Notes under the pieces: generated by a model
What the model saw: the letters and a program-made list of their open reading frames with translations, nothing else
The model's database searches: none
Told to the model about the DNA's origin: nothing
In this document: positions 31,476 through 49,467 of the stretch, piece by piece
Numbering within the stretch: the stretch's first letter is position 1
How the letters are laid out: each line of letters starts with the position of its first letter
Translations under genes and position numbers: made by a program
IMG/VR virus record: IMGVR_UViG_3300036944_000550
Coordinates: 1 to 64,000 of that record
DNA: 64,000 nt
Origin: a virus
Direction: 5' to 3' (one strand)

Positions 31476-31804
31476 TATTTTGTTACCTCTGGATTAATTA
31501 CAACGATTCCTTCTAGAACTCGTAGCGTTTCGCCATCGCCTGTAATTTCAATATCGTAAACATATCTTCCTGCCTTTATTGCTGAGGTTTGCACAGCAGT
31601 CATTGAAATAGTGACTTCACCATCTTCGGGTAAAGAAACTGCTGCAGTAAAATTAATAGCAGTATTAGTGTAATACGATCTGCGCATTTGTGCCGCTACA
31701 GTATAACCAGTAAGATCTTTTAGATCTCCGTTCTGATCATTTACTGCGAGGGACAAAGAAAAAGTTGTTCCTTGGTCAATAAAGATATTTTGAATTTGTG
31801 CCAT
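31475..31804 (-). CDS. virion structural protein (Ig-like/BppU-like adaptor)
   Basis: IDQGTTF..DLTGY..AQMR..GRYVYDIE..RVLEG pattern. Confidence 0.7.
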   Translation of the reverse strand: MAQIQNIFIDQGTTFSLSLAVNDQNGDLKDLTGYTVAAQMRRSYYTNTAINFTAAVSLPEDGEVTISMTAVQTSAIKAGRYVYDIEITGDGETLRVLEGIVVINPEVTK

Positions 31805-31831
31805 CGGAAACCCTTATAAATTATACGGGAA

Positions 31832-31839
31832 TATTTATA
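31832..31839 (-). promoter_or_regulatory. T4-type late promoter for the fibre cluster
   Basis: TATAAATA in the divergent intergenic region; a TATAAATT variant at 31815-31822 on + may drive the GT operon. Confidence 0.6.
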
Positions 31840-31854
31840 ACAACTGAGAATACT

Positions 31855-33262: not shown

Positions 33263-34077
33263 GAGTTAATTACGTCTGCTGTAAATGGGGAACAAAGTAT
33301 TCTGCTGAGTTTGTCAACCGTCTTTATCGAATGGCAAAGAAACACACCACCGAAGAATTCGAGTTTCACTTCTATTGCTATACAGATAATAGCGAAGGAT
33401 TCGAAGACGAGATTAAAGTCATCGACTTCCCAGACATCGCTGATATTCATCCCAAATATTGGTTCGGAAGCGAAGACTACAAATATGGTATGGCAAGGTG
33501 TTGGGACAGACCAAAAACCTTCATCTTCAATACGCATAATTTTGCAGAAGACAAACCGACTGGTAGATTTGTATTCTTCGATCTTGACGTTATCATTCAA
33601 AACGATTTAACGCCAATCATTACCTACGATCTAGACAACCCCACCAAGTTTCGATCTTGGTGGCAAGATCCTCGCCCAATGAAGTCACGCAACTTTAAAC
33701 TATCGCATGGTGCATATACGAATGGTAGTTGCATGGTTTGGTCAGATGATCAGACAGAATGTATATGGCAAGATGTTCTAGAGCACCAAGAACGAATCTG
33801 GTTTACATTTACAGATGGAACTGACAACTACCACAGTTGGCGGTGGGGCGACTTTAGTAATACCCCTCTGTGGAAACATTTCCCAAACACCTTTGCTTAC
33901 TCATACAATCGCGGTCGCGACTGGGATTCAGGGGATCTTGAAGTTGGTATATATAGAAAAGACTGTATTGTTTGTGTTTTTAATGTGGATCTACTTCCAT
34001 TCACAGACAATAGCAGAGGAAAAGTGAAACAGGAATCCTTGGTCGATCCTGATCTTTTAGAGCATTGGAATGTTTGA
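33259..34077 (+). CDS. glycosyltransferase-like protein, copy 3
   Basis: CCKWGTKY..FVNRL, CYTD, FFDLD, NGSCMVW, GTDNY. Confidence 0.78.
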   Translation: MRVNYVCCKWGTKYSAEFVNRLYRMAKKHTTEEFEFHFYCYTDNSEGFEDEIKVIDFPDIADIHPKYWFGSEDYKYGMARCWDRPKTFIFNTHNFAEDKPTGRFVFFDLDVIIQNDLTPIITYDLDNPTKFRSWWQDPRPMKSRNFKLSHGAYTNGSCMVWSDDQTECIWQDVLEHQERIWFTFTDGTDNYHSWRWGDFSNTPLWKHFPNTFAYSYNRGRDWDSGDLEVGIYRKDCIVCVFNVDLLPFTDNSRGKVKQESLVDPDLLEHWNV

Positions 34078-34760
34078 TGATTAGTATTTACACAGTGAAG
34101 TGGGGAACAAAATATAGTGTTGACCATGTTAATAAAATACTTGAGCAATGCAGAGAACACATAACAACTGATTTTGATTTTTACTGTTTGACTGAACATA
34201 CCATCGGTTTACATTCTGACGTTATCGTAATTCCTTTTCCAGAAGATAATTACTATGAAAAATGGTGGAATAAATTATACTTATTCGATAAGCAAGTTGT
34301 ATCTCAACGTGGAGAAAAACTATTTCTGGATCTTGATATAGTTATTCAAAACAATATCGATTGCATAGTAGACCATGACCCAGAAGATGGTTTGACATTT
34401 GTTCACACTCACTGGCACAACATGAAGAAAATGAAACGCGATACACAAGACATTCCTCGTGCATACACCGACCTAAATTCTAGTGTGTTAAGATGGAATG
34501 ATAGATTAGATACTGATAAGATTACCAAGTTTGTTACAGACTATCCCGACCAAATGTTTTTTCATTATCGAGGTCTTGATAATCTTTTCGGTCACCAGCG
34601 CGACCGCTTATTGAAAATTGATTTTTTTCCTGATGGTTGGGTGTATAGTTACAACTACGGATACATGTGGCCGATTGATACTAGAGAACAAGTTATCCGA
34701 ACCGAACCACTAATTTGCTTATATGACTCAATGGAAAGACCACAAGATGTTAAATTATAA
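34077..34760 (+). CDS. glycosyltransferase-like protein, copy 4
   Basis: VKWGTKY..HVNKI, WWNKL.LF, FLDLD, NSSVLRW, GLDN. Confidence 0.78.
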   Translation: MISIYTVKWGTKYSVDHVNKILEQCREHITTDFDFYCLTEHTIGLHSDVIVIPFPEDNYYEKWWNKLYLFDKQVVSQRGEKLFLDLDIVIQNNIDCIVDHDPEDGLTFVHTHWHNMKKMKRDTQDIPRAYTDLNSSVLRWNDRLDTDKITKFVTDYPDQMFFHYRGLDNLFGHQRDRLLKIDFFPDGWVYSYNYGYMWPIDTREQVIRTEPLICLYDSMERPQDVKL

Positions 34761-35403
34761 TTATTTGAATAACTATCGTTATTGGGGCGAAGGATTGGAT
34801 AAAATCAATCACGAACTGCCATGGAAACATGAAGACTTTCGTAAGTCTCTGAATCCGAATACTATGGATGCTGCTATTTGGTTAGTAGAAGAACTACTGA
34901 AAGTAGAAGATATCCCAGAAGAATTGAATATTACAATTTTGAATTCATGGTTAGGATTTCCTCTGCTACCGTTACTCTGCGAAAATTTAAATGTCAAGAA
35001 GATTAATTTGATTGATATTGATAAAGATGCGTTGGAACTATCAAAAGTATTCAATCGGTTTTATAGCGATAGTGGAATAGAACTAGACCATATCAACTGG
35101 GATGTTCCCTTTGCATATCATGACATCAATGCACTAGAAACTGATGTAGTAATTTCTATTGGGTGCGAGTCAATGTATCCGTTGAAGAAAATGACGACCG
35201 CAAACAAGGATTGTATCTTTGCTTGTCAGTCTTCAAATGTTTTTAGAGAGATGTATGGTATCAATTGTGTTCCATCGATCGAAGAGCATGTTGAGAATGT
35301 TGGAGTTACTGATGTTTTCTACGAGGGATCTATTAAGCAGTCATACTATAGTTGGGATGGCAAGGTCGAGTTTGACCGCTTCATGGTAATTGGAAAAAAG
35401 TAA
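34747..35403 (+). CDS. class I SAM-methyltransferase-like protein (degenerate Gly motif)
   Basis: ITILNSWLG, acidic LIDID strand, DVVISIGCESM, ACQS..FDRFMVIG. Confidence 0.55.
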   Translation: MLNYNYLNNYRYWGEGLDKINHELPWKHEDFRKSLNPNTMDAAIWLVEELLKVEDIPEELNITILNSWLGFPLLPLLCENLNVKKINLIDIDKDALELSKVFNRFYSDSGIELDHINWDVPFAYHDINALETDVVISIGCESMYPLKKMTTANKDCIFACQSSNVFREMYGINCVPSIEEHVENVGVTDVFYEGSIKQSYYSWDGKVEFDRFMVIGKK

Positions 35404-36003
35404 ATGATGCTTGGGACAAACACGGATATTAAAAAAATAACTGAGAATTGGATTCCAGAAAATTCTGTAGGTGCAGAAATCGGTATCTGGAGAGGTGATG
35501 CGTCAAAACAACTTTTGACAAAATGTAGTTATCTACATATGATAGATCCATATAATATCAGCGTATATGAAAATACTACTGATTGGTTGAATATGGGGTA
35601 CGAAAAAATATTAGAGAGATATTCTTCATTAGTAGGTTCGACAGACCCAGCAGATTTTCAAAAATTTTATGACGATCTCTATCTTGACGTTTGTGAACAA
35701 TTTAAAGATTTACCTGCAACTATCCATCGAATGACTTCTCGGGATTGGTTTTCTTCTTATACTGGAGAAAAATTGGACTGGATTTATATCGATGGTGATC
35801 ATAGTTATGAGGGTGTGATGGAAGATTTGGTATCTAGTCTTGATGTGGTAAAACAAAATGGATTAATTTTTGTTGATGATTATTCAATACATAATAGTTT
35901 ACATCCTGGAGTTAGAGCAGCAGTCAGAGATTTCTGCTATGAGAGAAAATTAAAATTCAAGAGATTATATCTCAATACGTGCATGATAGAATTGGGGACA
36001 TAA
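35404..36003 (+). CDS. class I SAM-dependent methyltransferase (Methyltransf_24-like)
   Basis: GAEIGIWRG, IDPY, DWIYIDGDHSYE, GLIFVDDY, GVRAAV. Confidence 0.85.
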   Translation: MMLGTNTDIKKITENWIPENSVGAEIGIWRGDASKQLLTKCSYLHMIDPYNISVYENTTDWLNMGYEKILERYSSLVGSTDPADFQKFYDDLYLDVCEQFKDLPATIHRMTSRDWFSSYTGEKLDWIYIDGDHSYEGVMEDLVSSLDVVKQNGLIFVDDYSIHNSLHPGVRAAVRDFCYERKLKFKRLYLNTCMIELGT

Positions 36004-36004
36004 T

Positions 36005-36742
36005 ATGGCAAGAGCAAGAGTCGTCGCACCACCACCACAAGATTATATTCCAGAACCTTTAGTATCAGCACCACCTCCTCCCGAGGAAGTGGTCGCGGAA
36101 GAATGGATCGATGGAAACTTCCAAGAAGAAATTATCGAAGTTGAGATTAATGAACCTTCCCAAGAAGAACTTGATAGGGAAAGAATCGCGCAAGAAAAAC
36201 ATGAAGAAATACAGAGACAAAAACTTGCAATAGAAGAAGAATCAAAAGTAGCAGCAGAAACAATTGCTAAAGCAAAAGAGATTCTAGAAAATCCGCCTGT
36301 CGTAATTGAGAAGGTAATCGAAACAGTAATCGAAACTGTTCATGTTACAGATCCGAAACTAGTTGAAGAATTACAAATCCTCAAAGAGGAAAATGAAAAA
36401 CTTGCCAGAGAAAATGCTGCAGCAGTAAGAGCAAAAGAAGAACAAATTTTAAAGGCGCGACAACAGGCAACTGAACAGCGCAGCAATCAACACATGGTTC
36501 AATTAAACATGACACCAAAAATTCCATCGTTAATTAGTAAAATTAAAACAGTATTTCGAAACCGTCGAATTAAGTCTGCTACTAATGTTGGAATTAAAAA
36601 CTATGAAACTGCAATCCTCGAGCGAGCAAGAATTGCAGTTCCTAAGTTGTTAGATGATATTGAAAAAATGCATGAGCAGTTGACTATTCTAGAAGATCTG
36701 CTCACAAAATATAGTGAGGTTAAGAGCACTCAGGAAAAGTGA
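36005..36742 (+). CDS. hypothetical protein, Pro-rich N-terminus plus coiled coil
   Basis: APPPQ/PPPPEE start and long E/K/Q heptads. Confidence 0.7.
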   Translation: MARARVVAPPPQDYIPEPLVSAPPPPEEVVAEEWIDGNFQEEIIEVEINEPSQEELDRERIAQEKHEEIQRQKLAIEEESKVAAETIAKAKEILENPPVVIEKVIETVIETVHVTDPKLVEELQILKEENEKLARENAAAVRAKEEQILKARQQATEQRSNQHMVQLNMTPKIPSLISKIKTVFRNRRIKSATNVGIKNYETAILERARIAVPKLLDDIEKMHEQLTILEDLLTKYSEVKSTQEK

Positions 36743-37407
36743 GAAGCGTCTTCACCTGAGATATCTTCAATCATTGACCGCCAGATTTCTAGATGCGGTA
36801 CAACATATCCTAGTGTCAATCTTTTAGCAGAGTTACCGCAGCAGTGGTATACAATTTTATTCGGATCGCTACGATCACCGAAATGACCAACCTTACATGA
36901 CCAACCGATAGGATCAACCATAGTTACGATTTCCTTTGTAACTGGATCCAAGTAGCGAAAGTATCCACCATTTTCTTCTGTATTGTAAGTAATCAGAATA
37001 TTATATCCTGATGCATTCCAATTGGTATGCCAACCCATGAAACCATTTTCGGGATAATAGGTAAACACCGCATTGTTTCTTGCACCAAGATAACTCATTA
37101 TCTCAGAATTCGTTGCTTGCTGTCTTCTACCATATTCGGTTGGAAACCATGTTTGTCCATGTGCCTGAGACATGTCAGTACACCATGCAACATCAGGGAA
37201 ACCAACATGTCGCTCACCTTTACTAACGATATGATTAAGATACTGTTCATCAGTAGCAGTTTCCATATTCAATCCACCTCGACGTATTTCTTGATGCCTT
37301 TCTGGACCCAGCACGAGATGTTGATCATTTTGAGCAAAGAACCATTCTGTGAATGGATCTAAAATATCACTTAGTTCTTTAGAAACTGAATTTGTAAATT
37401 GTAGCAT
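36730..37407 (-). CDS. 2OG-Fe(II) oxygenase-like (DSBH/cupin) protein
   Basis: YYPENGFMGWHTN, GGYFRY, distal YHC and KRLT arginine. Confidence 0.65.
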   Translation of the reverse strand: MLQFTNSVSKELSDILDPFTEWFFAQNDQHLVLGPERHQEIRRGGLNMETATDEQYLNHIVSKGERHVGFPDVAWCTDMSQAHGQTWFPTEYGRRQQATNSEIMSYLGARNNAVFTYYPENGFMGWHTNWNASGYNILITYNTEENGGYFRYLDPVTKEIVTMVDPIGWSCKVGHFGDRSDPNKIVYHCCGNSAKRLTLGYVVPHLEIWRSMIEDISGEDASHFS

Positions 37408-37417: not shown

Positions 37418-38116
37418 TTAATCTAATAAAGAATGTGGAATTGTATAATGATAAATCACTACTGGTCGACCCTGCAATTCTTCTTGTTTATATCCGGAAA
37501 CAAAGTTCCATCTGGCATCTGGATCAGGGAATCTGGCAGTTTTAACGCCAAAGTCGAAATGATTTAGGAGTCTCCACATTGTGAATGTGTCCCACTGCAA
37601 TGCTGATTTGGGATAATGTTTACGATCCCATCCTGGTTTATTCTGTTCCCAGTACTCGTCATACCATGCACGCATGAGTTTCAATGTTTGTTCATTGTTT
37701 CGGTAGATAAACAATCCACAGTGCTCAGTCATTTCTTCTGTGTCAGATAACTTAGTCAGTGCTGCGTTATACGGGCGATTAGCAGTAAAGAGGATATCTA
37801 CATCTTTGGGGATTTGATCAAAGATCTTTTGGATGTCTTCATGCTCAACTTCCATGTCACAATCCATGTAGGTTGTTAAGTCATACGGAGTTTGATCAAG
37901 CGCCCAAAGTTTCGCTCGTTTATCTCTTGGGACATTCTCAGTTACAACTGTGTCAAAGATTTCATAATCATCTGGTTGAACCCATTCCTCATGCGTGAAG
38001 AATGTTATTTTTGCATCAGGATAGAAATCGCGTAGAGATATAGCGGAATTTCTCGCCGCTCTATAATAACCTTTTCTTACCGTTGCAACATAAAGGAAAC
38101 CATTATTCTGCATCAA
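37418..38116 (-). CDS. glycosyltransferase-like protein (GT-A fold), copy 5
   Basis: GFLYVAT, KLWAL..TPYD.T.YMDCD (DxD), HCGLFIY, ARWN, VIYHY. Confidence 0.7.
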   Translation of the reverse strand: MMQNNGFLYVATVRKGYYRAARNSAISLRDFYPDAKITFFTHEEWVQPDDYEIFDTVVTENVPRDKRAKLWALDQTPYDLTTYMDCDMEVEHEDIQKIFDQIPKDVDILFTANRPYNAALTKLSDTEEMTEHCGLFIYRNNEQTLKLMRAWYDEYWEQNKPGWDRKHYPKSALQWDTFTMWRLLNHFDFGVKTARFPDPDARWNFVSGYKQEELQGRPVVIYHYTIPHSLLD

Positions 38117-38627: not shown

Positions 38628-40406
38628 TTATACGGTGCGAACCCAAAGTTTTATGGTCGATACAGTTTCTTTAGTTGCGATCACTGTCGCACCCGAGAAG
38701 TTGCTTGAATATGTTCCACTAAAGTTACTGGCATAATTTCCTGTATAGTTTCTAGAACCTGAATAATATCCAGTGTAGTTTCCTGTAAAGAATCCAGTGT
38801 AGTTACCAGTATATGTTGCAGTTCCTGCAAAGAACCCAGTATAAAACCCTGTAAAGAACCCAGTGTAAGTACCCGTATATGTTGCAGTTCCTGCGTAAGC
38901 ACCTGTAAAGAATCCAGTATAATTACCAGAATATGTTCCAGTGTAAGTTGCTGGTCCAACATAGTTACCAGTAAAGAATCCTAAGTATGTACCGAGATAT
39001 GTTCCATTATAGTTACCTGCATAGTTTCTAGAACCAGAATAGGTGCCGAGATAGTTGCCGGAGAAGTTACCTAGATAGTTACCTGAGAAGTTGCCCGTAT
39101 AAGTTCCAAGATAGTTACCCTGGAAATTTCCATTAAGGAATCCGCCAAAGAATCGTGCATATGTTCCGAGATAGTTACCAGAGAAACCTTGCGAGTAAGT
39201 TCCTGTGAAGTTTCGCGAATATGTTCCGAGATAGTTTCCAGCATAGTTACCTGCATAGTTTCTAGAACCAGCATAATTTCCTGAGTAGTTTTTACTGAAG
39301 TTACTGGTGTAGTTACCAGAATAACCAGCAGTCCCTACAAAGTTACCAACATAGTTTCCACTGAAACCTCTCGAGTAAGTACCTGAATAGTTTGCTGGAC
39401 CAACATAACCGCCACTAAAGTTGTTTGCGAATGCTCCAGAATATGCTGCGGAATAGTTTGCTGGACCCACGAAACCGCCACTAAAATTGTTTGCGAATGC
39501 CCCAGTATATGTCCCAGCATATGCTGCAGAATAGTTTCTTGAACCTGAGAAGGTGCCGAGATAGTTACCCGAGAAGTTACCCAGATAGTTCTGTGGTGTT
39601 ACTTGCTCTCTGGTATCAGCAAACTCATCACCCATCGCAACCCAAGTACCACTCACTGGTGCTGTAGATTGAACCTTATATGTGCCGATTCCCGTGTCAA
39701 TAATTCTGTTTCTAAAACTCGGAAGCATCTGTAGGATTTCAGAAGATGACATTTCTTTGACATCTTTGGTATCAATCAGTTTTAGTGGTTTGAGATTAGA
39801 GTCTGACAATGTAGTTGCAGCAGTTTTCTGCCATAGATATGTTACTGTGTTGCCGCCATTAGCAACATCAGTTAATGTGTATCGAGCAACCCATGTACCA
39901 CCTGATGGAGCAGTTGGTTGTAGTTTATATTGCCCAGCAGTATATGTGGTCTCGGTGATCATCGCATTGATTGCATAATCTAAGATTTCACTATCAATTT
40001 GACCATCGGACATTTCTTTAATACCATCGTCATATTTCAACGGACGATTGGTAATGCTTTCTGCCGCAGCAGCAGTAACCTGTTTTGCAGTGTATGTGAC
40101 AACATTCGCATTTGCCATGTATGTACCAGAAGCGTCCGTATAAGCCGTACCAACTGCATCTGCTGGATGAGTTCCTGTCGCCGCTTGAAGATCTGTGTCA
40201 ACAAACGTGCCGATCGAAGTACCAGAACCACTGTTGTTTGTTGTGATGTTGATTTCAGCAGTGCCAGTACCATCTGAGTTTGCGCCGAAAGAAACTGTCA
40301 GAGTTTGTGCAATGTAATTCTTTACTTCATCGACAGACATCTGTTGTAGACCCTGCCAGTTTACAGCAGAAACTGGTGTTGCCGAAGATTTATTTCTCAA
40401 AACCAT
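38628..40406 (-). CDS. virion protein with a 300 aa x-[YF]-x-G repeat insert (paralogue A)
   Basis: N-terminal domain paralogous to 40409..42442; repeat region 38691-39590; shared C-terminus ATKETVS..KLW.RT. Confidence 0.8.
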   Translation of the reverse strand: MVLRNKSSATPVSAVNWQGLQQMSVDEVKNYIAQTLTVSFGANSDGTGTAEINITTNNSGSGTSIGTFVDTDLQAATGTHPADAVGTAYTDASGTYMANANVVTYTAKQVTAAAAESITNRPLKYDDGIKEMSDGQIDSEILDYAINAMITETTYTAGQYKLQPTAPSGGTWVARYTLTDVANGGNTVTYLWQKTAATTLSDSNLKPLKLIDTKDVKEMSSSEILQMLPSFRNRIIDTGIGTYKVQSTAPVSGTWVAMGDEFADTREQVTPQNYLGNFSGNYLGTFSGSRNYSAAYAGTYTGAFANNFSGGFVGPANYSAAYSGAFANNFSGGYVGPANYSGTYSRGFSGNYVGNFVGTAGYSGNYTSNFSKNYSGNYAGSRNYAGNYAGNYLGTYSRNFTGTYSQGFSGNYLGTYARFFGGFLNGNFQGNYLGTYTGNFSGNYLGNFSGNYLGTYSGSRNYAGNYNGTYLGTYLGFFTGNYVGPATYTGTYSGNYTGFFTGAYAGTATYTGTYTGFFTGFYTGFFAGTATYTGNYTGFFTGNYTGYYSGSRNYTGNYASNFSGTYSSNFSGATVIATKETVSTIKLWVRTV

Positions 40407-40408
40407 GT

Positions 40409-42442
40409 TTATGCTGTCCTTATCCACAATTTAACAGATGACACTGTTTCTTTAGTTGCTTGTATTGTTGCGCCGGAATATGTTCCTATAAAGTTATTTA
40501 TATAACTCCCCAAGTAATTTCCAGTGTAATTTGTTGTTCCAGTGTAAAAACCAGTATATGCTATTCCTACGCCAGTGAAATACCCTGTATAGGTTCCAGT
40601 GTACGCTGTTCCAGTAAAGGTTGCAGAATATGGAGTTCCTGGAGTTCCGCTGAAAAACCCTGAGTACGCTGGTCCTGGACCAGTATAGAATCCAGTATAT
40701 GAAGTTCCTGGACCACTGAAAAACCCTGAGTACGCTGGTCCTGGACCAGTATAGAATCCAGTATATGAAGTTCCTGGACCTGTAGGTCCAGTATAAGTTC
40801 CTGCATACGGCTGACCATATGATGGACCTGCTGGATTCGAGTATGATGGACCTGCTGGATTCGAATATGATGGACCAGCTGGGTTTGATCCTGCAGGTGT
40901 AGAATATGATGGCGGTCCCGCATAGAATCCAGTGTAATATGCCTTGTCATAACCAGTGACAAAATACAGGGAAGGGCCTTGGAAATTTCCTGCATAACCT
41001 AAATTTGATGCATAGAATCCAGCATAATTTTGTGGTGCCGAAAACTCTCCTATGTAAACTTCTCCAGGTTCATTTGGAGCGATAGGTATCTCAAAGTATC
41101 CAGTATAGTTGAGACCTGGACCTGTATAAAACCCAGTATAGTTTGCAGCAAAGATACCACTAGTATAATATACTACCTGTTCTCTTTGGGGCGGAGGACC
41201 ATCGTAATTCCCTCCATAACTGCCAGTATATGGTGTTGAATATGATGGACCTGCTGGATTATTACCTGCTGGATTCGAGTATGATGGACCTGCTGGATTC
41301 GAATATGATGGACCAGCAGGTGTAGAATAAAATGGACCACCTATGTAATTACCAGTATAATTTGCTCCTGGATTTGCTGGACCCGTATAAGTTAATCCAG
41401 TATAATTAGTAGTACTAGAAAAATTACCAGTATAATTGCTGGACCCTGTATAGGTTGTTCCAGTATATGCTAAAGGAGAGGAAAAAGATCCAGTATAATT
41501 GCTGGAAGTACTATAGGTTGTTCCAGTATATGGGGAACTATAAGCAGGTCCAGTAAAATTACTGCTGTAATTTCCTGATGCAGAATAAGGCGCAGAATAT
41601 GGAAAAGGACCAGTATAATTACCAGTATAATTACCAGTATAATTACTACTGTAATTACCAGCGTAGTTCTGTGGCGTTACTTCTTCGCGAGTATCCGTGA
41701 ATGTGTTACCTGTTTGAACCCAAGTGCCGCCACTAGGCGCATCTGATTGGATTTTATAAGTTCCGATACCTGTTTCAATAATTCTATTTCTAAAGACTGG
41801 AAGCATCTGTTCGATTTCTGCTTCAGTCATCTGCTTGCAGTTACCACCATTAAACGTTCTTAGTGGTGTGAGATCCGCTGTTGGTAGTGAAGATGAAACT
41901 GTTTTCTGCCACAGATATGTTACAGTGTTTCCACCTTGTGCTGTATCTGTTAATGTATACCGCGAAACCCAAGTTCCGCCTGATGGTGCAGTTGCTTGCA
42001 GTTTATATTGTCCAGCAGTATATGTTGATTCAGATACCATTGCATTAATACACAGATCCATTGTGCTATCAATGTCACCATCTACCATTTCTTCTAGACG
42101 AGAATCCCATGCTAATGGTCTGTTGGTAATACTTTCCACTGCTGCAGCAGTAACCTGTTTAGCAGTGTATGTTGTTGTAGAAACTGCACCAGTAGCAGGA
42201 TGCGTTCCGATAGATTCGGTTCTTGTCGTATCGACAAACGTACCGATCAAAGTTCCTGCACCTGAGTTATTTGTAGTAATATTAATTTCAGCAGTTCCAG
42301 TACCATCTGTTACTGCAGCAAACTTTTCTGTGATAACATTAGCAATATAATTTTTTACCTCTGCATCGGTCATGGTCTGCAAACCGCTGATGTTTGCAGA
42401 AGTGATTGGGGAACCTGTTGCCTTGACCTTTAGAGGGTTCAT
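40409..42442 (-). CDS. virion protein with a ~400 aa Tyr/Gly/Pro repeat insert (paralogue B)
   Basis: Same N- and C-terminal scaffold as paralogue A; repeat region 40472-41668. Confidence 0.8.
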   Translation of the reverse strand: MNPLKVKATGSPITSANISGLQTMTDAEVKNYIANVITEKFAAVTDGTGTAEINITTNNSGAGTLIGTFVDTTRTESIGTHPATGAVSTTTYTAKQVTAAAVESITNRPLAWDSRLEEMVDGDIDSTMDLCINAMVSESTYTAGQYKLQATAPSGGTWVSRYTLTDTAQGGNTVTYLWQKTVSSSLPTADLTPLRTFNGGNCKQMTEAEIEQMLPVFRNRIIETGIGTYKIQSDAPSGGTWVQTGNTFTDTREEVTPQNYAGNYSSNYTGNYTGNYTGPFPYSAPYSASGNYSSNFTGPAYSSPYTGTTYSTSSNYTGSFSSPLAYTGTTYTGSSNYTGNFSSTTNYTGLTYTGPANPGANYTGNYIGGPFYSTPAGPSYSNPAGPSYSNPAGNNPAGPSYSTPYTGSYGGNYDGPPPQREQVVYYTSGIFAANYTGFYTGPGLNYTGYFEIPIAPNEPGEVYIGEFSAPQNYAGFYASNLGYAGNFQGPSLYFVTGYDKAYYTGFYAGPPSYSTPAGSNPAGPSYSNPAGPSYSNPAGPSYGQPYAGTYTGPTGPGTSYTGFYTGPGPAYSGFFSGPGTSYTGFYTGPGPAYSGFFSGTPGTPYSATFTGTAYTGTYTGYFTGVGIAYTGFYTGTTNYTGNYLGSYINNFIGTYSGATIQATKETVSSVKLWIRTA
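40650..40780. repeat. near-exact 66 bp tandem duplication
   Basis: ctgaaaaaccctgagtacgctggtcctggaccagtatagaatccagtatatgaagttcctggacc occurs twice, starting at 40650 and 40716. Confidence 0.9.
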
Positions 42443-42443: not shown

Positions 42444-42926
42444 TTAGTTTAACCTGTTACCACTCGAGTCATATACAATTAAATTAGTTACACGATACCA
42501 ATCTACGGCATCTTGTGCAATCAATTCAACAGATGAATATGGTGATAGATTAACACCAACGTTGACAGTTCCACCGTCAATGACATCTGAAGTATTTGGA
42601 TACACCTTAATGGTAACTGCTGTGGTATTGATAACCTTGATGGTCAAACCAGCGGCAGCAGTCGGGAGTTTTACACCTTGATTTGCTGTTGCTGTTGTGA
42701 TCATGTTGACAGTTTTTGTCAGCGCAGTAGCATCACCTTGAGTGGTTCCTGCTGCTGTAACTGTGCCTGCGACCGATTTGGTCAGGGTTCCGGTAAGTGT
42801 TAAATCTGCAAAAGAAGGACTAGCGCCAGATTCATACTTATCTGTATTCAAATTGCTGAAGTTATTATCAACTTCAGTATTCGTCAGCGGAGTCCCCTTT
42901 ACAGATCTAAGGGTAAGAGTGCTCAT
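42444..42926 (-). CDS. virion structural protein
   Basis: LTLRSVKGTPLTNTEVDNNF fibre-type N-terminus; ends VYDSSGNRLN. Confidence 0.7.
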   Translation of the reverse strand: MSTLTLRSVKGTPLTNTEVDNNFSNLNTDKYESGASPSFADLTLTGTLTKSVAGTVTAAGTTQGDATALTKTVNMITTATANQGVKLPTAAAGLTIKVINTTAVTIKVYPNTSDVIDGGTVNVGVNLSPYSSVELIAQDAVDWYRVTNLIVYDSSGNRLN

Positions 42927-43149: not shown

Positions 43150-46100
43150 TTACACCTGCAACGCAATCGCTCTTAGTTCTCTCACGCGAGGAACGACAGA
43201 ACTATTTGTTGATAGAGGAATAACCTTTACTGCGAAACTTTTATATCCGCTGTAAGTAGCACTTCCTACTGTGTATTCAAGAACTCCAGCATTTTTATTT
43301 GCTGTCGGTATGGTATACTGATATTCAACATAACCAGATTTTGCTGTGGTGCTAAGAGGTGGATTTACTGCCTCTAATTCGATCCAAGCAAGATCATCAA
43401 AGTTCGAGGGATCTGTTGCTTCTTGGAATTTACCATATACCTTAACATCACAACCAACAGGAATCTGATTGCTCAAATATACCTTTAGATCTTCTGCATC
43501 TTGACCATCATCAAGAACAACCCTACGAGAGATATACTTAGAAGCAGCGGAACCGTTGTTTCCAGTTTCAGTAGTAGTAAGATTATTTACATCATTGGCA
43601 ATTGCGATTATAGAACATTTTCTAGTATCGATTACAGGCGAAACAGTTGATGTTTGTGTCATCATACCTGCTCTAACTGTCAGAGATTTATCACCATCCA
43701 AATCTGTTTGTTCATTTGAGTACGAATAGATTTGTGCTTCATATGATAACTCATACTCCTGCCCGAAATTGATTCCCTCAAACGTAGTTCCGCCAGCACC
43801 TGCACCAGTTGCAGTTGGTGCAACTGACCAAGAAATTGTTGCAGGAGTATGATCAATAGAACCGATATTGGTTTCAAGGACATTAAGTTGCTTATTTTCG
43901 ATTTCTGTGATTTCAGCATAAGATGTACCGTTACCAATAATATCAGCAGCAGTGAATGAACCCAGATTTACTAGAATCTTACCTACATTGTATAGGGAAT
44001 CATATTGTTTAACAAATCCTCTATTCAAAGTTACTGCTACTGCTGCAGCAGAACCACTACCACTCGAGATAGTTAGTCTTGGATTGGATGTGGTCACATA
44101 TGTCAGACCTGTCAACGTACCAGCAGTAGTTACGATTGCTGCACCGCCAGAAGTTTGAAGAGTGAATCCAGTAACATTTGGTGACGTTCCAGTTACTGCA
44201 GAAACTTTGTAGACAGTTCCTGATGTGTATCCAGTAATGGTGCCTGTACCTGCACGAGTACCAGTAATTGTTACAGTATCACCAACAGATAGCGACGATG
44301 CGCCACAAGTAAACTGCCCAGCAGTACCAGAAGTAGCAACAGTCGCTGCCAGAGTTCCAGTCGTTGTATTATATCCCGCTCCTGGATTTATAACTGCAAC
44401 ATTTGTTACTGATCCGCCTGCGATTGTTACCGCAACAGTTGCATTTGTAGTAGCACCACCACCTGAAAGAGTATGTGTAATAGTTCCGTTCGTATAACCA
44501 GTACCTGCATTCGTAATATTGAAGGAGAATCCGTGAATTACATCACCTGCTTCAAAGTTTCCGTTCGTAAACGAATCGAATTTCAGGAAGTCGACATCCA
44601 TGTTTCTCATCACAAGCGAACCAACTGTATTGATTTCAAAGTTTGCACGACGTAACGTAAACTTAATATCTTCTGCTTGGTGTGCTGTCCAAGATCTATC
44701 ATTTGCAGATGTAAATAGAAGACCTACGTGTGGTTGCTCAGAAATTCTATTCTCTGTGCCGAGTTCGTTCTCGCCCAATTCAGAAACCCAAATATTATAA
44801 TCTGGATTATTACCTGCAGGAAGAAGAACAAAACAGTATTCCGTATTGTTCTGAAGATATACAGGTGATGGGAAAGTGAATGTTGTTGCAGTTGCAGCGG
44901 TTTCACTCACAGAAACGTCAGCAGGATTTAGTGTTACTTCACCAAACGGAATAACTCTATTACCAGGATATCCATTTACCACTTCTCTTAGTTGGAGAGT
45001 AATTGGTGCACTAGATGACTTGGTTCTGAAATATACATCAAGATTGGTAGCATAACAACCGAATGGCATACCTTCGACATAGAAGGTCTGTGCAATAGGA
45101 TCTCGTCCTCGAACTGGTGGCGCGCAAGGATTTACTGTGTTACAAATTTCAGGAAGTGATATTGTTTCAAAACTTCCAAAAACGAGACCACCGAAACCAC
45201 CGAAACCACCTATTTGAATTTCTTGTGCAGGCGTGCAAGTTGTTACTGGTTCGCAAGGATTTGGAGTTGGAGTTTCGGCAACGGGCACGACAGGTGCGGT
45301 TGGTGTTGGTGGTGGAGTTGGTGTAATAACAGGAGGATCTGCAACAACAACTGGCGGTAACGTAGGAGGAGGAGGTGTTCCTGGTGGTGGTGGAGGAGGT
45401 GGCGGAGGAGGTGGTGTAATCACGGTATTTTCAATATTTGTTATGTTATTAACCGTCGTAAATGTATTATTTACTGTTGTTTGGACAACACCAACATTTC
45501 TATCTGCTAATCTATTTTCAGTAGTAGATGTTTCAAATACTGATCTTGAATCAGAAACATTGTTGATCGCCACGTTAGCAACACGAGTCGATACGACTGT
45601 GTCTTGGACAGATTGTGACAATCCATTTGCTGACCATGTTTGCGTGGACGCAGTTGTTATGAACGTATCGCGGTTAAATTCATCATCACAGAGACGGAAA
45701 TTCTTATCACCAGTACGGAATGTTGCTGCTGGAATTCTAAATTGTCCTACGCAAATACCCTGAGCATTTGTAATTAGCGAGGCACCATAAGCACCCGAAT
45801 TGCCAGCAATCGCATATGAAGAATACGCTGCAGGATCCGTTGGTGGAATATCCGTAGTTGGATCAAAACTCAGTGGTCTACAATGTGTCGCAACACCAAT
45901 ACCATCAAAGAATGGGAATACTCGTGTATTTGGTTTCATTCTTTTTGCGATGAAGGTTATGACAACTGACCGCATGAACGGAATGATGGAAGTATCTGTT
46001 ACGCGAGCACCAATTCTCTGACTTTGCGTTTCCGGAGTTACTGAAATAGAAACACCTTGACGAGTTTGGCGCTGTTCGGTGGTAGTAGTTATAACTTGTG

Positions 46101-49100
46101 TTTGTTCTTGGAATAGTGTATCACCACGTATTTGTGTATTACCAGCGACAGTTTGTGAGGTTTGTCCTGTGGCAGTTCTTCCAGTTACTACATCTTGCCA
46201 ATCACCATACTGAGTTCCCCATGCATCTGCCATGGTTTCCCAAGCATCATAATTTCCATCGAAGTTTACACTTACATCTGGTTGCATTGAGGTATCCGTC
46301 CAGTTATCAACTGGTGGATCTAGTTCCATATTTCCGATGTAGTTAAAGAGTAACTCCCCGACACAATTTCTCGGTTTAGAGGCCGATGTATTTTCTGTCA
46401 TCATGATATTAGTATACGGGAGGGTTATCAAGTCGCCCGTCTTATATACGTTTGTTGAGTTGGTATAATCAAAAGCGAGATCGATATTTTCTAGATAGAA
46501 GAAAGGACGCAGTTCTTTTTTTACTGGATCAATTGAGATATGATATGCACTATCAAAAACATTACCGATATTATGTCCAGTAAACGCATCAACTAGGATA
46601 CCGTTTTTAAAACGATCAAGTCCAGAACCATCAGGTATAGACAAATCACTGGCCGCTTTTTCTAATAGCGTCAACGATGTATAATACTCAAGACGGTTGA
46701 TTCGTTGTTCTAGAACACCGATGTCGCGCATAGTATATCGACGATTATCAATGCTTCGGAATGTCACACCATAATCTGGACGATTTACGCTCTTCGCAAC
46801 ATTAGGAGCGAGTGATGGATATGGTGGAATTGTTATGATTGCCAGTGACATGCAATTATCTGGTTCAGCAGGAATTCCAGGAATCAGTGATGGTGTACCA
46901 TATATCGTACTGAATACACCTTCGGAGTCAATGATCAGTCGATCTGTTCTTCCGAGATAATACTCTAGATCAGTAATAAACTGTTCGGTTGGAACTGGAT
47001 TTGTGATACCAACGGAAGGAGCAGATAAGGTTGTGCTCTCAGTAGGATTAGTTGTTGCAGATCCTACAGTGGTAGAATTCGCTGCAGAATCTGCATAACG
47101 AACACGGAAATCTAAAGTATCACGCAAGTCAAATGATTCACCTGTCAGCGGCGATCTATAAATTGGAATATCCTGCGTCTTAATTGTTCCTGCGGCCGCA
47201 CCAGTATCATCAATCGGATATGAGTCAACAACAAAGAAAGTACCGTCTGCAGAAGCACCATCGTGGGTGAAGAAATCTAATTTGATAACCAATTTCTTAT
47301 TCGTAAGTGACGGTGCACTAGGTTTCTTGATAATTTTGGCATTGCGATATTCATTATCACGTTGACCATTATCGAGAGTAAACGAAGAAGCAATGTCTAC
47401 ACCAGCAGCAACTACTGCAGCATCAGTATCAGTATTAGCACCAATAAAAATATTTTTAATTTGATACACATCTGACAGACCAAGTGAATACGTACCAGTA
47501 TTTGTTGATGGGTGGGTATTCGTATTGATAATTGCGTAACGATCTTCACGAAGAACCTTTAAAATAGGTTGCGCATTAGCAGTCTGAACATTTACATAAA
47601 GTTTAACCTGCTTTGGTGCAGCGGCAAGACTTCCTGTAAGATCAATAGTGATTGATTGTGCCGAGTTCTTTGTGAATGTTGCCTCAACCGTAGTAAGATT
47701 AATTATCGATCCAATTGGACGACTATCACCATCAATGGTAGCCGCTTCTTTCATCACCATAGTGAAATTATTGTTTCTGATTGTATTAGTAAACGAATCA
47801 TATGGGAAAGTTTCGTCACCACTTAGAGTTATGGTAACTCCACCAGTAATGCTTAATTCACCGTCGAATTCTTTGGTGTAGATAAATGAGTTATCATAAA
47901 CTGCACTGGGAGCAATAGTTTTCGTTGCTCGAGCAGGAATTCTATATAGAGATTTGTTGAAACTTGTTTCTTGTAGAACAGCATTACCACCTACGAGAAC
48001 AATATCGGCATGACCATCAGCAGTATCATTATAGAAGATACCGCGAACATCCTTAAAATCTCCACTTGACATTGCAATGTCATAGAGATATAAACGATAT
48101 TCTGCCGCAGCAGTTCCAACTGTTCCAGATTCATATACAATCTGTTTTACGCGAGCAGTACCAACCTGAGATCCCGCTGCAGCAGTTGCAGAAAATGTAG
48201 TTGCAGTGATTGCTCCTGCTGCTATACTGCGAAGACTGACTTTATCGCCAGTGTTTAAATCCCACATCCCGCAGAATTCGTCTACGAGAATATAGTTACC
48301 ATACGCAGTACTAATTGGAATTTCTTGTTGATTTACTGTTGTCAATCCCTTTGGAACAACAACGTATTCTGTTTGGAATGTTTCATGCTCATATCCGCGA
48401 ACATATGCTTTACCTGCTTCAAGACCGATAGCAAGAAGATCTTTGCTACCACCACGTTCTGGATCGACAGTGTTTAGTGTTCGTAAACCATTGTTATCGT
48501 CAACATTAAGATGCTCTTTAATCAAAACAGGGAATTGTCTTACTGCATAATTACCTGACTCGTCATATGTGCGTCTCGCCATGTTCTTACCGAGTTCGCC
48601 ATAGATATTTGCAGTGTAAATTCTTTGGACTTCTCCACTTATGATTTCAACCAATTGGTTAAACGTGGGAGGAATTGTGTCAGTTGATTCATATGCAACA
48701 AGCGTAGTTGTTACTTGGTATCTATCTGCCCCTGGAGCAGCATAGTTGAAAGATCCTTGTGCAGGATCTAGTAAAGTTTGATCATCTTCAGCAGAAACTG
48801 TATCTTCTACGATCTGGAATCCAACCTTTACAGATGGTAGATTGGAATACTTAGAAAGTATGATTGTTTGTGTTTCGTGATTGACGAATTTACCATCAAT
48901 ATACACAATACCGTCATCAACAGTCAACGCAGAAGCAAGACCCCAATAACTGTTAGTTGGTTCTGCTTCATCATATGTGGTATCAACAACAAATGTATCA
49001 CCGTTTCTGCCCGCAGTCGTGGAAGTTACAGTAAGAGTTTCACCCCCTGTGAAGTGAACCGCAGTCGTAGATCCATCACCGCTTGTATAGCGAAGATATA

Positions 49101-49467
49101 GTGTTTTCAAGTCAGGAGATTCTGCTTGAGTACCAGTTGCTGCATCAAGAATTACTGCGGTGATTCCTGATGTTGCACCAGTTACCGTATCGCCAATATA
49201 ATCTACTAGTGTGTCATTATCTACTCCAGCATCAAGGATCTTAACGAATGCTCTCTGAGAATCCAGTTTGAATTCACAACCTTGGACGACTGAACCATTC
49301 TTGAAAATATGGTTTCCGAATTTACCAATTTGAGATTGCAACAGAGTTTGTAGTTGCGTAAGTTCGCGTGCCTGTACTGCATATCCAGGACGGAACAAAA
49401 CTCGATTGAAATTTTTTGCATCGTCAAAGTCATCATAGTATGGAGATACATTTAAATTCAGTGCCAT
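43150..49467 (-). CDS. giant baseplate/virion structural protein (DUF4815 / VrlC-like)
   Basis: PYYDDFD..KNF.RVLFRPGYAVQARELTQLQ, APGADR, ARRTYDESGNY, RYTMRDIG.LE.RI, DPIAQTF, P.VRELRAIAL. Confidence 0.88.
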   Translation of the reverse strand: MALNLNVSPYYDDFDDAKNFNRVLFRPGYAVQARELTQLQTLLQSQIGKFGNHIFKNGSVVQGCEFKLDSQRAFVKILDAGVDNDTLVDYIGDTVTGATSGITAVILDAATGTQAESPDLKTLYLRYTSGDGSTTAVHFTGGETLTVTSTTAGRNGDTFVVDTTYDEAEPTNSYWGLASALTVDDGIVYIDGKFVNHETQTIILSKYSNLPSVKVGFQIVEDTVSAEDDQTLLDPAQGSFNYAAPGADRYQVTTTLVAYESTDTIPPTFNQLVEIISGEVQRIYTANIYGELGKNMARRTYDESGNYAVRQFPVLIKEHLNVDDNNGLRTLNTVDPERGGSKDLLAIGLEAGKAYVRGYEHETFQTEYVVVPKGLTTVNQQEIPISTAYGNYILVDEFCGMWDLNTGDKVSLRSIAAGAITATTFSATAAAGSQVGTARVKQIVYESGTVGTAAAEYRLYLYDIAMSSGDFKDVRGIFYNDTADGHADIVLVGGNAVLQETSFNKSLYRIPARATKTIAPSAVYDNSFIYTKEFDGELSITGGVTITLSGDETFPYDSFTNTIRNNNFTMVMKEAATIDGDSRPIGSIINLTTVEATFTKNSAQSITIDLTGSLAAAPKQVKLYVNVQTANAQPILKVLREDRYAIINTNTHPSTNTGTYSLGLSDVYQIKNIFIGANTDTDAAVVAAGVDIASSFTLDNGQRDNEYRNAKIIKKPSAPSLTNKKLVIKLDFFTHDGASADGTFFVVDSYPIDDTGAAAGTIKTQDIPIYRSPLTGESFDLRDTLDFRVRYADSAANSTTVGSATTNPTESTTLSAPSVGITNPVPTEQFITDLEYYLGRTDRLIIDSEGVFSTIYGTPSLIPGIPAEPDNCMSLAIITIPPYPSLAPNVAKSVNRPDYGVTFRSIDNRRYTMRDIGVLEQRINRLEYYTSLTLLEKAASDLSIPDGSGLDRFKNGILVDAFTGHNIGNVFDSAYHISIDPVKKELRPFFYLENIDLAFDYTNSTNVYKTGDLITLPYTNIMMTENTSASKPRNCVGELLFNYIGNMELDPPVDNWTDTSMQPDVSVNFDGNYDAWETMADAWGTQYGDWQDVVTGRTATGQTSQTVAGNTQIRGDTLFQEQTQVITTTTEQRQTRQGVSISVTPETQSQRIGARVTDTSIIPFMRSVVITFIAKRMKPNTRVFPFFDGIGVATHCRPLSFDPTTDIPPTDPAAYSSYAIAGNSGAYGASLITNAQGICVGQFRIPAATFRTGDKNFRLCDDEFNRDTFITTASTQTWSANGLSQSVQDTVVSTRVANVAINNVSDSRSVFETSTTENRLADRNVGVVQTTVNNTFTTVNNITNIENTVITPPPPPPPPPPPGTPPPPTLPPVVVADPPVITPTPPPTPTAPVVPVAETPTPNPCEPVTTCTPAQEIQIGGFGGFGGLVFGSFETISLPEICNTVNPCAPPVRGRDPIAQTFYVEGMPFGCYATNLDVYFRTKSSSAPITLQLREVVNGYPGNRVIPFGEVTLNPADVSVSETAATATTFTFPSPVYLQNNTEYCFVLLPAGNNPDYNIWVSELGENELGTENRISEQPHVGLLFTSANDRSWTAHQAEDIKFTLRRANFEINTVGSLVMRNMDVDFLKFDSFTNGNFEAGDVIHGFSFNITNAGTGYTNGTITHTLSGGGATTNATVAVTIAGGSVTNVAVINPGAGYNTTTGTLAATVATSGTAGQFTCGASSLSVGDTVTITGTRAGTGTITGYTSGTVYKVSAVTGTSPNVTGFTLQTSGGAAIVTTAGTLTGLTYVTTSNPRLTISSGSGSAAAVAVTLNRGFVKQYDSLYNVGKILVNLGSFTAADIIGNGTSYAEITEIENKQLNVLETNIGSIDHTPATISWSVAPTATGAGAGGTTFEGINFGQEYELSYEAQIYSYSNEQTDLDGDKSLTVRAGMMTQTSTVSPVIDTRKCSIIAIANDVNNLTTTETGNNGSAASKYISRRVVLDDGQDAEDLKVYLSNQIPVGCDVKVYGKFQEATDPSNFDDLAWIELEAVNPPLSTTAKSGYVEYQYTIPTANKNAGVLEYTVGSATYSGYKSFAVKVIPLSTNSSVVPRVRELRAIALQV

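What the first reader, a model, noticed from the sequence alone, without database searches (positions are those of the whole stretch)
38628..42442. Two paralogous virion proteins whose 300-400 aa repeat inserts are mirror-symmetric around an exactly central turn (candidate fold-back hairpin fibres)
Seen in sequence: both proteins share an N-terminal scaffold and the C-terminal ATKETVS..KLW.RT, with a long x-[YF]-x-G repeat inserted at the same site (after TPQ). In paralogue A (38691-39590, 300 aa) the tetrapeptides form blocks separated by 2-residue kinks: SR, PA, PA, TA, SR, then a centre, then SR, PA, TA, TA, SR. That is five kinks per side, and the only register break (ARFFGGFLNG) sits at about 39140, the arithmetic midpoint. 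In paralogue B (40472-41668, 399 aa) the midpoint (about 41070) falls on the non-repetitive IPIAPNEPGEV loop. The GPSYSNPA arrays on either side are mirror-ordered: the short GNNPA unit is 4th of 5 going out and GSNPA is 2nd of 5 coming back. Inference: each chain runs out and returns antiparallel, forming a long thin needle with a variable tip, stabilised by stacked Tyr/Phe and Gly. I do not recognise this as a described fibre family.
Basis: partly seen in the sequence, partly recalled or inferred. Interest (0 to 1): 0.9.

Follow-up and report, generated by a model that had tools for sequence, protein, structure and literature searches.

The report
Fold-back tyrosine-glycine hairpin phage fibres
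Two neighbouring genes of an uncultured T4-like aquatic phage encode proteins in which a 300-400-residue four-residue repeat most likely runs out from a small base domain, turns exactly in the middle and runs back along itself, a way of building a long thin virus fibre that I found described in no paper or database.

Summary
Genes A (38628-40427, -) and B (40409-42442, -) are 45% identical paralogues with no Pfam, PHROG, NCBIfam or PDB sequence match. Each has a confident about 260-aa base domain, a 300- or 399-aa x-[YF]-x-G insert, and a conserved C-terminal strand.

The fold-back reading is supported by four sequence tests.
- The insert replaces the turn of a beta-hairpin in the third of three internal repeats, so its two ends must lie side by side.
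- In homologues the two arms change length together (r=0.97; turn at 0.505±0.007 of the insert).
- The 2-residue kinks on the two arms face each other and follow a pairing rule: SR faces SR, and a P-type kink faces a T-type kink (85 of 92 rungs). A close relative of A shows a compensatory T:P to P:T flip.
- Mirror order beats direct order in 38 of 48 informative non-redundant inserts.

AlphaFold2 models only the base of the hairpin with confidence. Oligomer state, shape, virion location and function remain inferred. The genes sit just downstream of the VrlC-like baseplate gene, in a seven-gene block conserved in 70 viral contigs. The "variable tip" is not supported. The scan has noted larger relatives of this family on other DNA.

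The parts
40409..42442 (-). Gene B, 677 aa: the long paralogue (base domain, 399-aa insert, C-strand)
   Evidence: The long paralogue comes first in all 51 loci that hold both paralogues.
41669..42442 (-). B base domain, residues 1-258 (three helix+hairpin repeats)
   Evidence: many invariant columns
41081..41668 (-). B outward arm (N-arm), residues 259-454, including the GPSYSNPA/GNNPA array
41060..41080 (-). B central turn motif APNEPGE, residues 455-461, inside a less repetitive tip region of about 100 aa
   Evidence: this motif lies at 0.505±0.007 of the insert in 15 distinct length variants. AF2 strands 446-453 and 462-469 flank it, at low confidence.
40472..41059 (-). B return arm (C-arm), residues 462-657
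   Evidence: 34 aromatic-aromatic coincidences when folded
40412..40471 (-). B C-terminal strand, ending KLWIRTA, which completes the third repeat of the base domain
38628..40427 (-). Gene A, 599 aa from the GTG (probably 592 aa from the ATG at 40406): the short paralogue
   Evidence: start inferred
39591..40427 (-). A base domain, residues 1-279; AF2 pLDDT above 90
39156..39590 (-). A outward arm, residues 280-424, with kinks SR PA PA TA SR
39138..39155 (-). A central turn RFFGGF, residues 425-430
   Evidence: in relatives with arms from 19/23 to 145/149, C-arm = N-arm + 4.
38691..39137 (-). A return arm, residues 431-579, with kinks SR PA TA TA SR
38631..38690 (-). A C-terminal strand, ending KLWVRTV
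   Evidence: (strand 560-597, pLDDT up to 98)
39330..39332 (-). Codon of T366 (kink TA on the N-arm). In the fold register it faces P492. The relative L002 has P here.
38952..38954 (-). Codon of P492 (kink PA on the C-arm). The relative L002 has T here, a compensatory flip.
39385..39511 (.). 66-bp (22-aa) tandem duplication within A's N-arm, 90% match
40624..40780 (.). 66-bp tandem duplication (2.3 copies, 93%) within B's C-arm
40826..40882 (.). 57-nt tract in B's C-arm array that is 98% identical to 41264-41320 in the N-arm (cross-arm homogenisation)
   Evidence: family D3
41264..41320 (.). Partner of the tract above, in B's N-arm array
42444..42926 (-). orf160, conserved just upstream of B; its stop abuts or overlaps B's start in the related loci
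43150..49467 (-). 2105-aa VrlC-like baseplate protein (DUF4815, phrog_358); marks the start of the host-recognition cluster
   Evidence: PMC7029224
36730..38558 (-). orf151, the glycosyltransferase-like orf232 and orf225; always follow the short paralogue

Best explanation
A and B belong to a large, unnamed family of phage structural proteins.

Base domain. The base is about 260 aa and is made of three tandem helix-plus-hairpin repeats. It folds on its own. It probably anchors the protein on the virion, at or near the baseplate.

Hairpin. The hairpin of the third repeat is drawn out into one very long two-stranded antiparallel ribbon. The chain leaves the base, runs 145 residues (A) or about 196 residues (B) outward, and turns at RFFGGF (A) or at APNEPGE (B), which lies inside a less repetitive tip region of about 100 aa. 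It then returns in register, so that residue i faces residue 858-i in A. Its last 20 residues form the closing strand of the base domain.

The two faces. The repeat x-[YF]-x-G puts aromatic pairs and glycine pairs alternately on one face of the ribbon. Asn/Thr/Ser pairs lie on the other face.

Kinks. Two-residue insertions occur at the same height on both arms. They come in matched types: SR faces SR, and a Pro-type kink faces a Thr-type kink.

Length changes. Length changes by matched gain or loss of 4-aa and about 22-aa modules on both arms, helped by the 12- and 66-bp periodic DNA.

What is shown: the topology, the central turn, the register and the co-variation of the arms.

What is inferred:
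- beta conformation along the whole length;
- an extended shape, about 45-65 nm if straight;
- presence in the virion;
- a role as host-contact or spacing fibres of the host-recognition cluster.

Oligomer state is open. I lean towards one ribbon per chain, because the base domain is itself pseudo-threefold.
For: - Topology. Repeat 2 of the base domain (GGTWV..YTLTD-turn-TVTYLWQKT) aligns with repeat 3 split by the insert (GTWV...DTRE / KETVS..KLWVRT). Scores are 77 (A) and 92 (B), against 25±5 for shuffles. Family members exist with almost no insert, at 287-296 aa total.
- Structure prediction. AF2 of A gives the base domain pLDDT above 90. It gives long strands 269-298 and 560-597, whose inner ends sum to 858, the register found from sequence.
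- Arm lengths. For the AP.EPG[DE] turn there are 15 distinct arm pairs: N-arm 149-248, C-arm 149-244, r=0.971, centre 0.505±0.007. For the RFFGGF turn, C-arm = N-arm + 4 from 19/23 up to 145/149.
- Tip-proximal block. It varies from 12.5 to 44.5 residues, and both arms change together.
- Folding A at i+j=298 (insert index) gives 32 aromatic-aromatic coincidences over 146 pairs, with Gly facing Gly between them.
- Kink rule. In 17 distinct patterns with 92 rungs there are 32 SR:SR, 53 P-type:T-type and 1 same-type pair. Direct order gives the same type at only 40 of 92. Patterns with 8 and 11 rungs are fully complementary.
- Compensatory flip. Window A has T366:P492. Its 88%-identical relative L002 has P:T at the same rung.
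- Mirror against direct order of spacings: mirror better in 38, direct better in 10, p=6e-5. Mean z is 1.9 against 0.17.
- B-like arrays. In P0004 the short units lie 64, 85.5, 98.5 and 111 from the turn on one arm and 62, 83, 96 and 109 on the other. This is mirror order, not direct.
- Context. The order VrlC-like baseplate gene, orf160, long paralogue, short paralogue, orf151, GT-like gene, orf225 is kept in 70 IMG/VR loci. PMC7029224 places tail fibres directly downstream of VrlC.
Against: - No confident 3D model of the arms exists. pLDDT is below 50 for residues 302-556 of A, and B's model is poor throughout (mean 49.6).
- A's own kink spacing fits an exact direct 170-aa repeat as well as the mirror.
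- Some relatives have unequal arms: 125/107, 125/141, 89/112.
- The sequences compared are related, so the counts are not independent events.
- There is no proteomic or microscopy evidence that the proteins are in virions. No cultured phage with a studied virion carries the family.
- A free two-stranded ribbon 50 nm long has no solved precedent that I know of.
Confidence: 0.72

Rival explanations
1. Trimeric six-stranded needle. Three chains, each folded back as above, pack by their aromatic/glycine faces around a threefold axis, as in the needle of the T4 gp37 tip. The fold-back is the same. The rival concerns only the quaternary structure.
For: - Phage fibres are trimers as a rule, and the gp37 needle is a six-stranded antiparallel structure of three chains (PMC9659904 and PMC6957217).
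- One face of the ribbon is aromatic-rich and would be buried in such a bundle.
Against: - The base domain is a single chain with three internal repeats, of which only one is extended. That suggests a pseudo-trimer within one chain rather than a true trimer.
- The inserts have no His and no HxH iron sites.
- There is no sequence or fold match to gp37.
Confidence: 0.3
2. No hairpin. The two halves are direct repeats kept equal in length by gene conversion or repeated duplication. The tract is a parallel beta-solenoid with about 22 residues per coil, or a disordered low-complexity linker.
For: - A shows an exact direct period of 170 aa, and 70-72% DNA identity between the arms at a 510-nt spacing.
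- Cross-arm DNA tracts in B are 98% identical.
- The class-level direct alignment of A scores slightly higher than the mirror one, 115.8 against 105.7.
- AF2 is unconfident in the middle.
Against: - The ends of the insert are the two strands of one hairpin.
- The turn motif stays central while the un-kinked central block changes length symmetrically.
- Kink types are complementary in mirror order but match in direct order at only 40 of 92.
- The irregular B-like arrays are in mirror order, not direct.
- Mirror beats direct in 38 of 48.
- B-like arms lack a 22-residue period.
Confidence: 0.06
3. The hairpin is real but not extended. The paired kinks are bends, so the ribbon zigzags or coils into a compact multilayer beta block instead of a 50-nm fibre.
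For: - The kinks recur about every 22 residues on both arms, with equal 2-residue insertions. That is what a face-to-face bend of a ribbon would need.
- The two faces are chemically distinct and could stack.
Against: - A's central 78 residues have no kink, and relatives vary this block freely.
- B-like arms have other, irregular units.
- Family inserts range from about 10 to over 1200 aa. That is easier to accommodate in an open-ended fibre than in a closed block.
- No model supports either shape.
Confidence: 0.12

Closest known systems
Needle domain of the T4 long-tail-fibre tip protein gp37 (structure by Bartual et al. 2010, as cited in PMC9659904 and PMC6957217)
   Same: The chain runs out to a distal tip and back, giving antiparallel strands along a thin rod at the host-contacting end of a T4-like phage fibre.
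   Different: - gp37 is a homotrimer with seven His-coordinated iron ions. Here the inserts have no His and trimerisation is unknown.
- There is no sequence, profile or fold match.
- The arms here are 145-200 residues of a 4-residue repeat with paired 2-residue kinks.
- They grow out of a hairpin of an N-terminal pseudo-threefold domain rather than from the C-terminus of a long trimeric shaft.
Beta-prism-like domains: the C-terminal domain of Plu-MACPF (2qp2), Mp2Ba1 (8b6v), the MABP domain of MVB12B (3tow) and the perforin-2 P2 domain (6sb1)
   Same: These are the best structural matches of the base domain plus hairpin base: Z 7.4, 7.3, 6.0 and 5.5, with 110-122 aligned residues. Like the base domain, they are built of repeated beta units.
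   Different: The Z scores are in the range the tool calls middling, which may reflect only a common arrangement. Sequence identity is 5-16%. The matches give no functional link and were not searched with the domain folded alone.
Polyglycine-II sandwich of the S16-type gp38 adhesin, and collagen-like phage fibres (from my own knowledge)
   Same: Glycine-rich short-period repeats in phage host-recognition proteins, with up-and-down chain segments.
   Different: Those repeats have a period of 3 and much more Gly. Here the period is 4, with Gly at 18-21% and an aromatic at every second position of the unit. Alternating faces point to beta strands.
Giant relatives noted earlier by this scan on other DNA (2142, 3508 and 1249 residues), and the 3347-aa CDS0201 of Phage C48C1
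   Same: Same base domain and C-terminal strand, the same repeat type, and the same out-and-back reading.
   Different: - The window's proteins are mid-sized members.
- They come as a conserved long+short pair.
- B carries Pro-rich 8+5-residue arrays and a tip region of about 100 aa.

Membership tests
T4 gp37 tip/needle family | Sequence or profile similarity to the gp37 C-terminal region | tested here: not met
   No Pfam, PHROG or NCBIfam family. No PDB sequence match by profile or by single sequence.
T4 gp37 tip/needle family | HxH motifs coordinating iron along the needle | tested here: not met
   The inserts of A and B contain no histidine (composition). The feature itself is as described in PMC6957217.
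T4 gp37 tip/needle family | The chain runs to the tip and returns antiparallel | tested here: met
   Shown by co-variation and topology, not by a structure.
T4 gp37 tip/needle family | Homotrimer forming six strands | not testable with these tools
   No usable result from the tools at hand. It needs SEC-MALS, native mass spectrometry or EM.
T4 gp37 tip/needle family | Structural similarity to 2XGF-like chains | tested here: inconclusive
   Not among the Foldseek or VIA matches. However, the arms of the model are of low confidence.
MABP / beta-prism-like domains | Fold match of the base domain well above background | tested here: inconclusive
   Z 5.5-7.4 over 110-122 residues, which is within the tool's 'common arrangement' range.
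Collagen-like or polyglycine-II fibre domains | Gly at every third residue | tested here: not met
   The aromatic spacing is 4, and Gly occupies position 4 of the unit in 45 of 57 units of A.
Tail-fibre genes of the pelagimyophage-type host recognition cluster (PMC7029224) | Position directly downstream of the VrlC-like baseplate gene and upstream of the neck genes gp13/gp14 | tested here: met
   VrlC-like protein at 43150-49467. gp13-like and gp14-like genes at 25282-26250 and 24532-25278. The gene order is kept in 70 loci.
Tail-fibre genes of the pelagimyophage-type host recognition cluster (PMC7029224) | Demonstrated presence in the virion or binding to a host receptor | not testable with these tools
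   No cultured carrier with proteomics. Only Phage C48C1 matches in the phage collection.
The unnamed base-domain + x-Ar-x-G hairpin + LW.RTA family itself | Base domain, insert after DTR..., and closing strand G.T[IV]...S..LW.R[TI]A | tested here: met
   More than 448 close homologues. 269 clusters at 50% identity, nearly all ending in the same strand.

The most novel reading that the evidence does not exclude
Each chain forms a free-standing two-stranded beta ribbon tens of nanometres long: a 'tyrosine-glycine ladder'. Its register is set by a simple code of complementary kinks (SR faces SR; Pro-type faces Thr-type). Its length is tuned in evolution by matched module gains and losses on both arms. 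The always-shorter paralogue A may pack against the basal part of the always-longer B (27 of 27 pairs), so that only B's tip region projects. This would be a new class of fibrous protein architecture, and a protein analogue of compensatory base-pairing.
Probability: 0.35. Interest if true: 0.9.

Novelty: new variant of a known kind. Interest (0 to 1): 0.75.

Why it matters
- Phage fibres decide which hosts are infected. This family sits in the host-recognition cluster of abundant uncultured aquatic T4-like phages, relatives of SAR11 and OM43 phages, whose fibres could not be annotated.
- If the ribbon is real, it is a very simple way to make a fibre of any length from one chain. Length is set by matched numbers of repeats.
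- The sequence rules are readable: aromatic faces aromatic, Gly faces Gly, and P-kink faces T-kink. They could be tested and used in protein design.
- The family gives a rare case where protein strand pairing can be read from compensatory changes, as in RNA helices.
- It offers a sequence signature for finding such fibres in metagenomes: the base domain together with the LW.RTA strand.

Tried and rejected
- Homotrimer prediction of the short relative P0141 (3 x 313 aa, alignment A3): score 0.00, no answer. This is not evidence either way.
- AF2 of B with alignment A2: mean pLDDT 49.6, not usable beyond the base strands.
- Foldseek of model A against PDB and BFVD: nothing with E<=0.001.
- Unique 7-mer midpoints and the cross-arm 6-mer rank correlation: too noisy in homogeneous repeats, 56 negative against 48 positive.
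- Windowed composition, mirror against direct: signal only for inserts of 300 aa or more (28 of 37). None for short ones, and none for A itself.
- Normalised mirror autocorrelation favoured short overlaps, so I replaced it with an excess count plus a unit-shuffle control.
- DNA inverted repeats as a source of the symmetry: none found. An assembly artefact is rejected, because both ORFs are intact in 70 independent contigs.
- An A+B bundle in register along the whole length: unlikely. The length ratio is 1.2-5.0 and r=0.46.
I used the search for related loci instead.
- The phage collection gave only Phage C48C1.
- The ESM Atlas gave only unnamed viral clusters.
- Literature searches found no description of such a repeat fibre.


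Full report
**Setting.** The window is part of a 96.5-kb IMG/VR viral contig, estimated 59% complete. It comes from a T4-like myovirus.
- Major capsid, scaffold, portal, sheath, terminase, neck and baseplate genes all lie on the minus strand.
- The capsid protein is closest to Methylophilales phage Melnitz (67%) and Pelagibacter phage HTVC008M (66%).
- The 2105-aa protein at 43150-49467 carries DUF4815. It matches proteins annotated VrlC/VriC-like in cyanophages and other myoviruses.
- In pelagimyophages, the stretch between VrlC and the neck gene gp14 has been called the host recognition cluster. The genes just downstream of VrlC are read there as tail fibres (PMC7029224).
- The two genes of the finding lie exactly there.

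**The observation.** Gene B (40409-42442) and gene A (38628-40427) are real ORFs and clear paralogues, 45% identical with E 2e-153.
- A probably starts at the ATG at 40406 (M8). Relatives begin there. I keep the 599-aa numbering.
- Neither protein matches any Pfam, PHROG or NCBIfam family or any PDB sequence.
- The inserts have the stated coordinates and lengths, 300 and 399 aa.
- In A, 76% of the insert is made of 4-residue units. Position 2 is Y or F in all of them, position 4 is G in 45 of 57, position 1 is mostly N or T, and position 3 is S, T, L or A.
- A has ten 6-residue steps, the kinks. They read SR PA PA TA SR, then the RFFGGF irregularity at index 148.5 of 300, then SR PA TA TA SR.
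- In B, the APNEPGE motif is at index 200.5 of 399. The GPSYSNPA/GNNPA units lie at matching distances on either side of it, with a constant offset of 3 residues.

**A large family.**
- A word-indexed search returned more than 448 homologues of 376-825 aa.
- An exhaustive search with A's base domain found 269 clusters at 50% identity, 250 to 1489 aa long.
- Nearly all end in the same strand, G.T[IV]...S..LW.R[TI]A. They differ mainly in the length of the repeat between the base domain and that strand, from about 10 aa to over 1200 aa.
- All are unnamed metagenomic proteins. The only hit in 50,697 phage records is the N-terminus of a 3347-aa hypothetical protein of Phage C48C1.

**Topology.** The base domain consists of three helix-plus-hairpin repeats.
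- Repeat 2 has a short hairpin: GGTWV.RYTLTD, turn, TVTYLWQKT.
- Repeat 3 aligns with it only if the part before the insert is joined to the C-terminal strand. The scores are 77 (A) and 92 (B), against 25±5 for shuffles with a maximum of 48.
- The insert is therefore an elongated hairpin turn, and its two ends must lie side by side.
- AlphaFold2 on A, with 150 aligned relatives, agrees. The base domain has pLDDT above 90. Two long strands, 269-298 and 560-597, emerge from it. The rest of the insert is below 50.
- B's model is poor throughout.
- Fold searches gave only middling matches (Z 5.5-7.4) to beta-prism-like domains.

- For relatives with the AP.EPG[DE] turn there are 15 distinct arm pairs. 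The N-arm is 149-248 and the C-arm 149-244, with r=0.971. The motif lies at 0.505±0.007 of the insert.
- For the RFFGGF-type turn, C-arm = N-arm + 4 from 19/23 up to 145/149. A few exceptions exist: 125/107, 125/141 and 89/112.
- The un-kinked block next to the turn varies from 12.5 to 44.5 residues among relatives, always on both arms together.
- A motif-free test placed the best fold centre within 3% of the exact middle in 45 of 101 non-redundant inserts. After shuffling the units the figure was 12% (p about 6e-16).
- The order of aromatic spacings fits mirror order better than direct order in 38 inserts and worse in 10 (p=6e-5). Mean z is 1.9 against 0.17.

**Mirror or direct repeat?** A by itself is ambiguous.
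- Its kink spacing has an exact direct period of 170 aa. The arms share 70-72% DNA identity at a 510-nt spacing. The class-level direct alignment scores slightly higher than the mirror one.
- The arms therefore probably arose by direct duplication.
- The kink types decide the question. When A is folded at i+j=298 (insert index), aromatic residues face aromatic residues at 32 positions and Gly faces Gly between them. The kinks then pair SR:SR, PA:TA, PA:TA, TA:PA, SR:SR.
- Across 17 distinct kink patterns with 92 rungs, 32 rungs are SR:SR, 53 are P-type facing T-type, and only 1 is same-type. Direct order matches type at only 40 of 92.
- Patterns with 8 and 11 rungs in irregular order are fully complementary.
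- The window's A and its 88%-identical relative in L002 differ at one rung by a double change. A has T366:P492 and L002 has P:T. The two residues face each other exactly in the i+j=298 register.
- In B-like proteins the irregular long/short unit arrays are in mirror order, not direct. P0004 has short units at 64, 85.5, 98.5 and 111 against 62, 83, 96 and 109.
- B folds with 34 aromatic-aromatic coincidences out of 40 and 46 aromatics on the two arms.

**DNA level.**
- There are no inverted DNA repeats, so the symmetry is one of protein architecture.
- There are recent 66-bp (22-aa) tandem duplications within single arms, at 39385-39511 in A and 40624-40780 in B.
- A 57-nt tract is 98% identical between B's two arms (40826-40882 and 41264-41320).
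- Slippage and cross-arm conversion, followed by selection for matched arms, would explain how length changes.

**Context and function.**
- In 70 IMG/VR loci the gene order is VrlC-like, orf160, long paralogue, short paralogue, orf151, a glycosyltransferase-like gene, then orf225. Both paralogues are present in 51 loci; most of the others are cut by contig ends.
- The first paralogue is longer than the second in 27 of 27 distinct pairs. The length ratio is 1.2-5.0 and r=0.46, so a full-length A+B bundle in register is unlikely.
- The tips are not hypervariable. The turn motifs are conserved, and differences from the closest relative are spread evenly.
- B-like proteins do carry several alternative tip modules.
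- Virion location and host contact are inferred from gene position only.

**Comparison and novelty.**
- The nearest described design is the gp37 needle of T4. It is a six-stranded antiparallel needle of three chains with seven iron sites (PMC9659904, PMC6957217).
- The out-and-back principle is shared. Sequence, His/iron sites and the domain context are not shared. Trimerisation is untested.
- A recent tail-fibre structure atlas does not use the word hairpin, and my literature searches found no such repeat fibre.
- The scan has already noted giant relatives on other DNA with the same reading. Those notes are not independent evidence. The tests above were run here on this window's family.

**Verdict.** Shape, oligomer state and function remain open.

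Noticed in passing
38691-39590 and 40472-41668; neighbours 37418-38116 and 31798-36003: The commonest repeat unit, N-[YF]-[ST]-G, is also an N-x-S/T sequon: 19 in A's insert and 14 in B's. A glycosyltransferase-like gene always follows the pair, with sub-threshold Pfam hits only. A plus-strand cluster of glycosyltransferase- and methyltransferase-like genes lies nearby. Whether the fibres are glycosylated is untested.
   Followed up: partly
40404-40427: A's ORF is called from a GTG at 40427, overlapping B by 19 nt. Relatives start at the residue matching M8 (ATG at 40406), 2 nt after B's stop. The shorter form of 592 aa is more likely.
   Followed up: partly
42444-42926 (-): orf160 is conserved directly upstream of the long paralogue in all loci, with abutting or overlapping stop and start. 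It has no family match, only unnamed viral clusters. It may be a partner or adaptor of the fibres.
   Followed up: partly
26518-28611 (-) and 29534-31225 (-): Two further candidate fibre proteins lie in the same cluster. One is 697 aa with an Mtd_N domain (E 6e-14). The other is 563 aa and matches structural PHROGs.
   Followed up: no
58090-62370 (-): The gp5-like hub/lysozyme function is split over two ORFs. A 318-aa ORF has a hub N-terminus plus a lysozyme/endolysin-like part. A 1106-aa ORF has hub and endolysin-like matches.
   Followed up: no
43150-49467 (-): The VrlC-like protein contains a run of about 11 prolines followed by more Pro-rich sequence, and a GFGGFGG motif, in its C-terminal third.
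   Followed up: no
L001 (OQ984149.1, 141011-151054): Phage C48C1 (Kyanoviridae) encodes a 3347-aa hypothetical protein whose N-terminus belongs to this base-domain family (26-28% identity). It follows genes annotated as tail fibre protein and tail assembly chaperone.
   Followed up: partly
36730-37407 (-): orf225, always last in the conserved block, has no family match in Pfam, PHROGs or NCBIfam.
   Followed up: no
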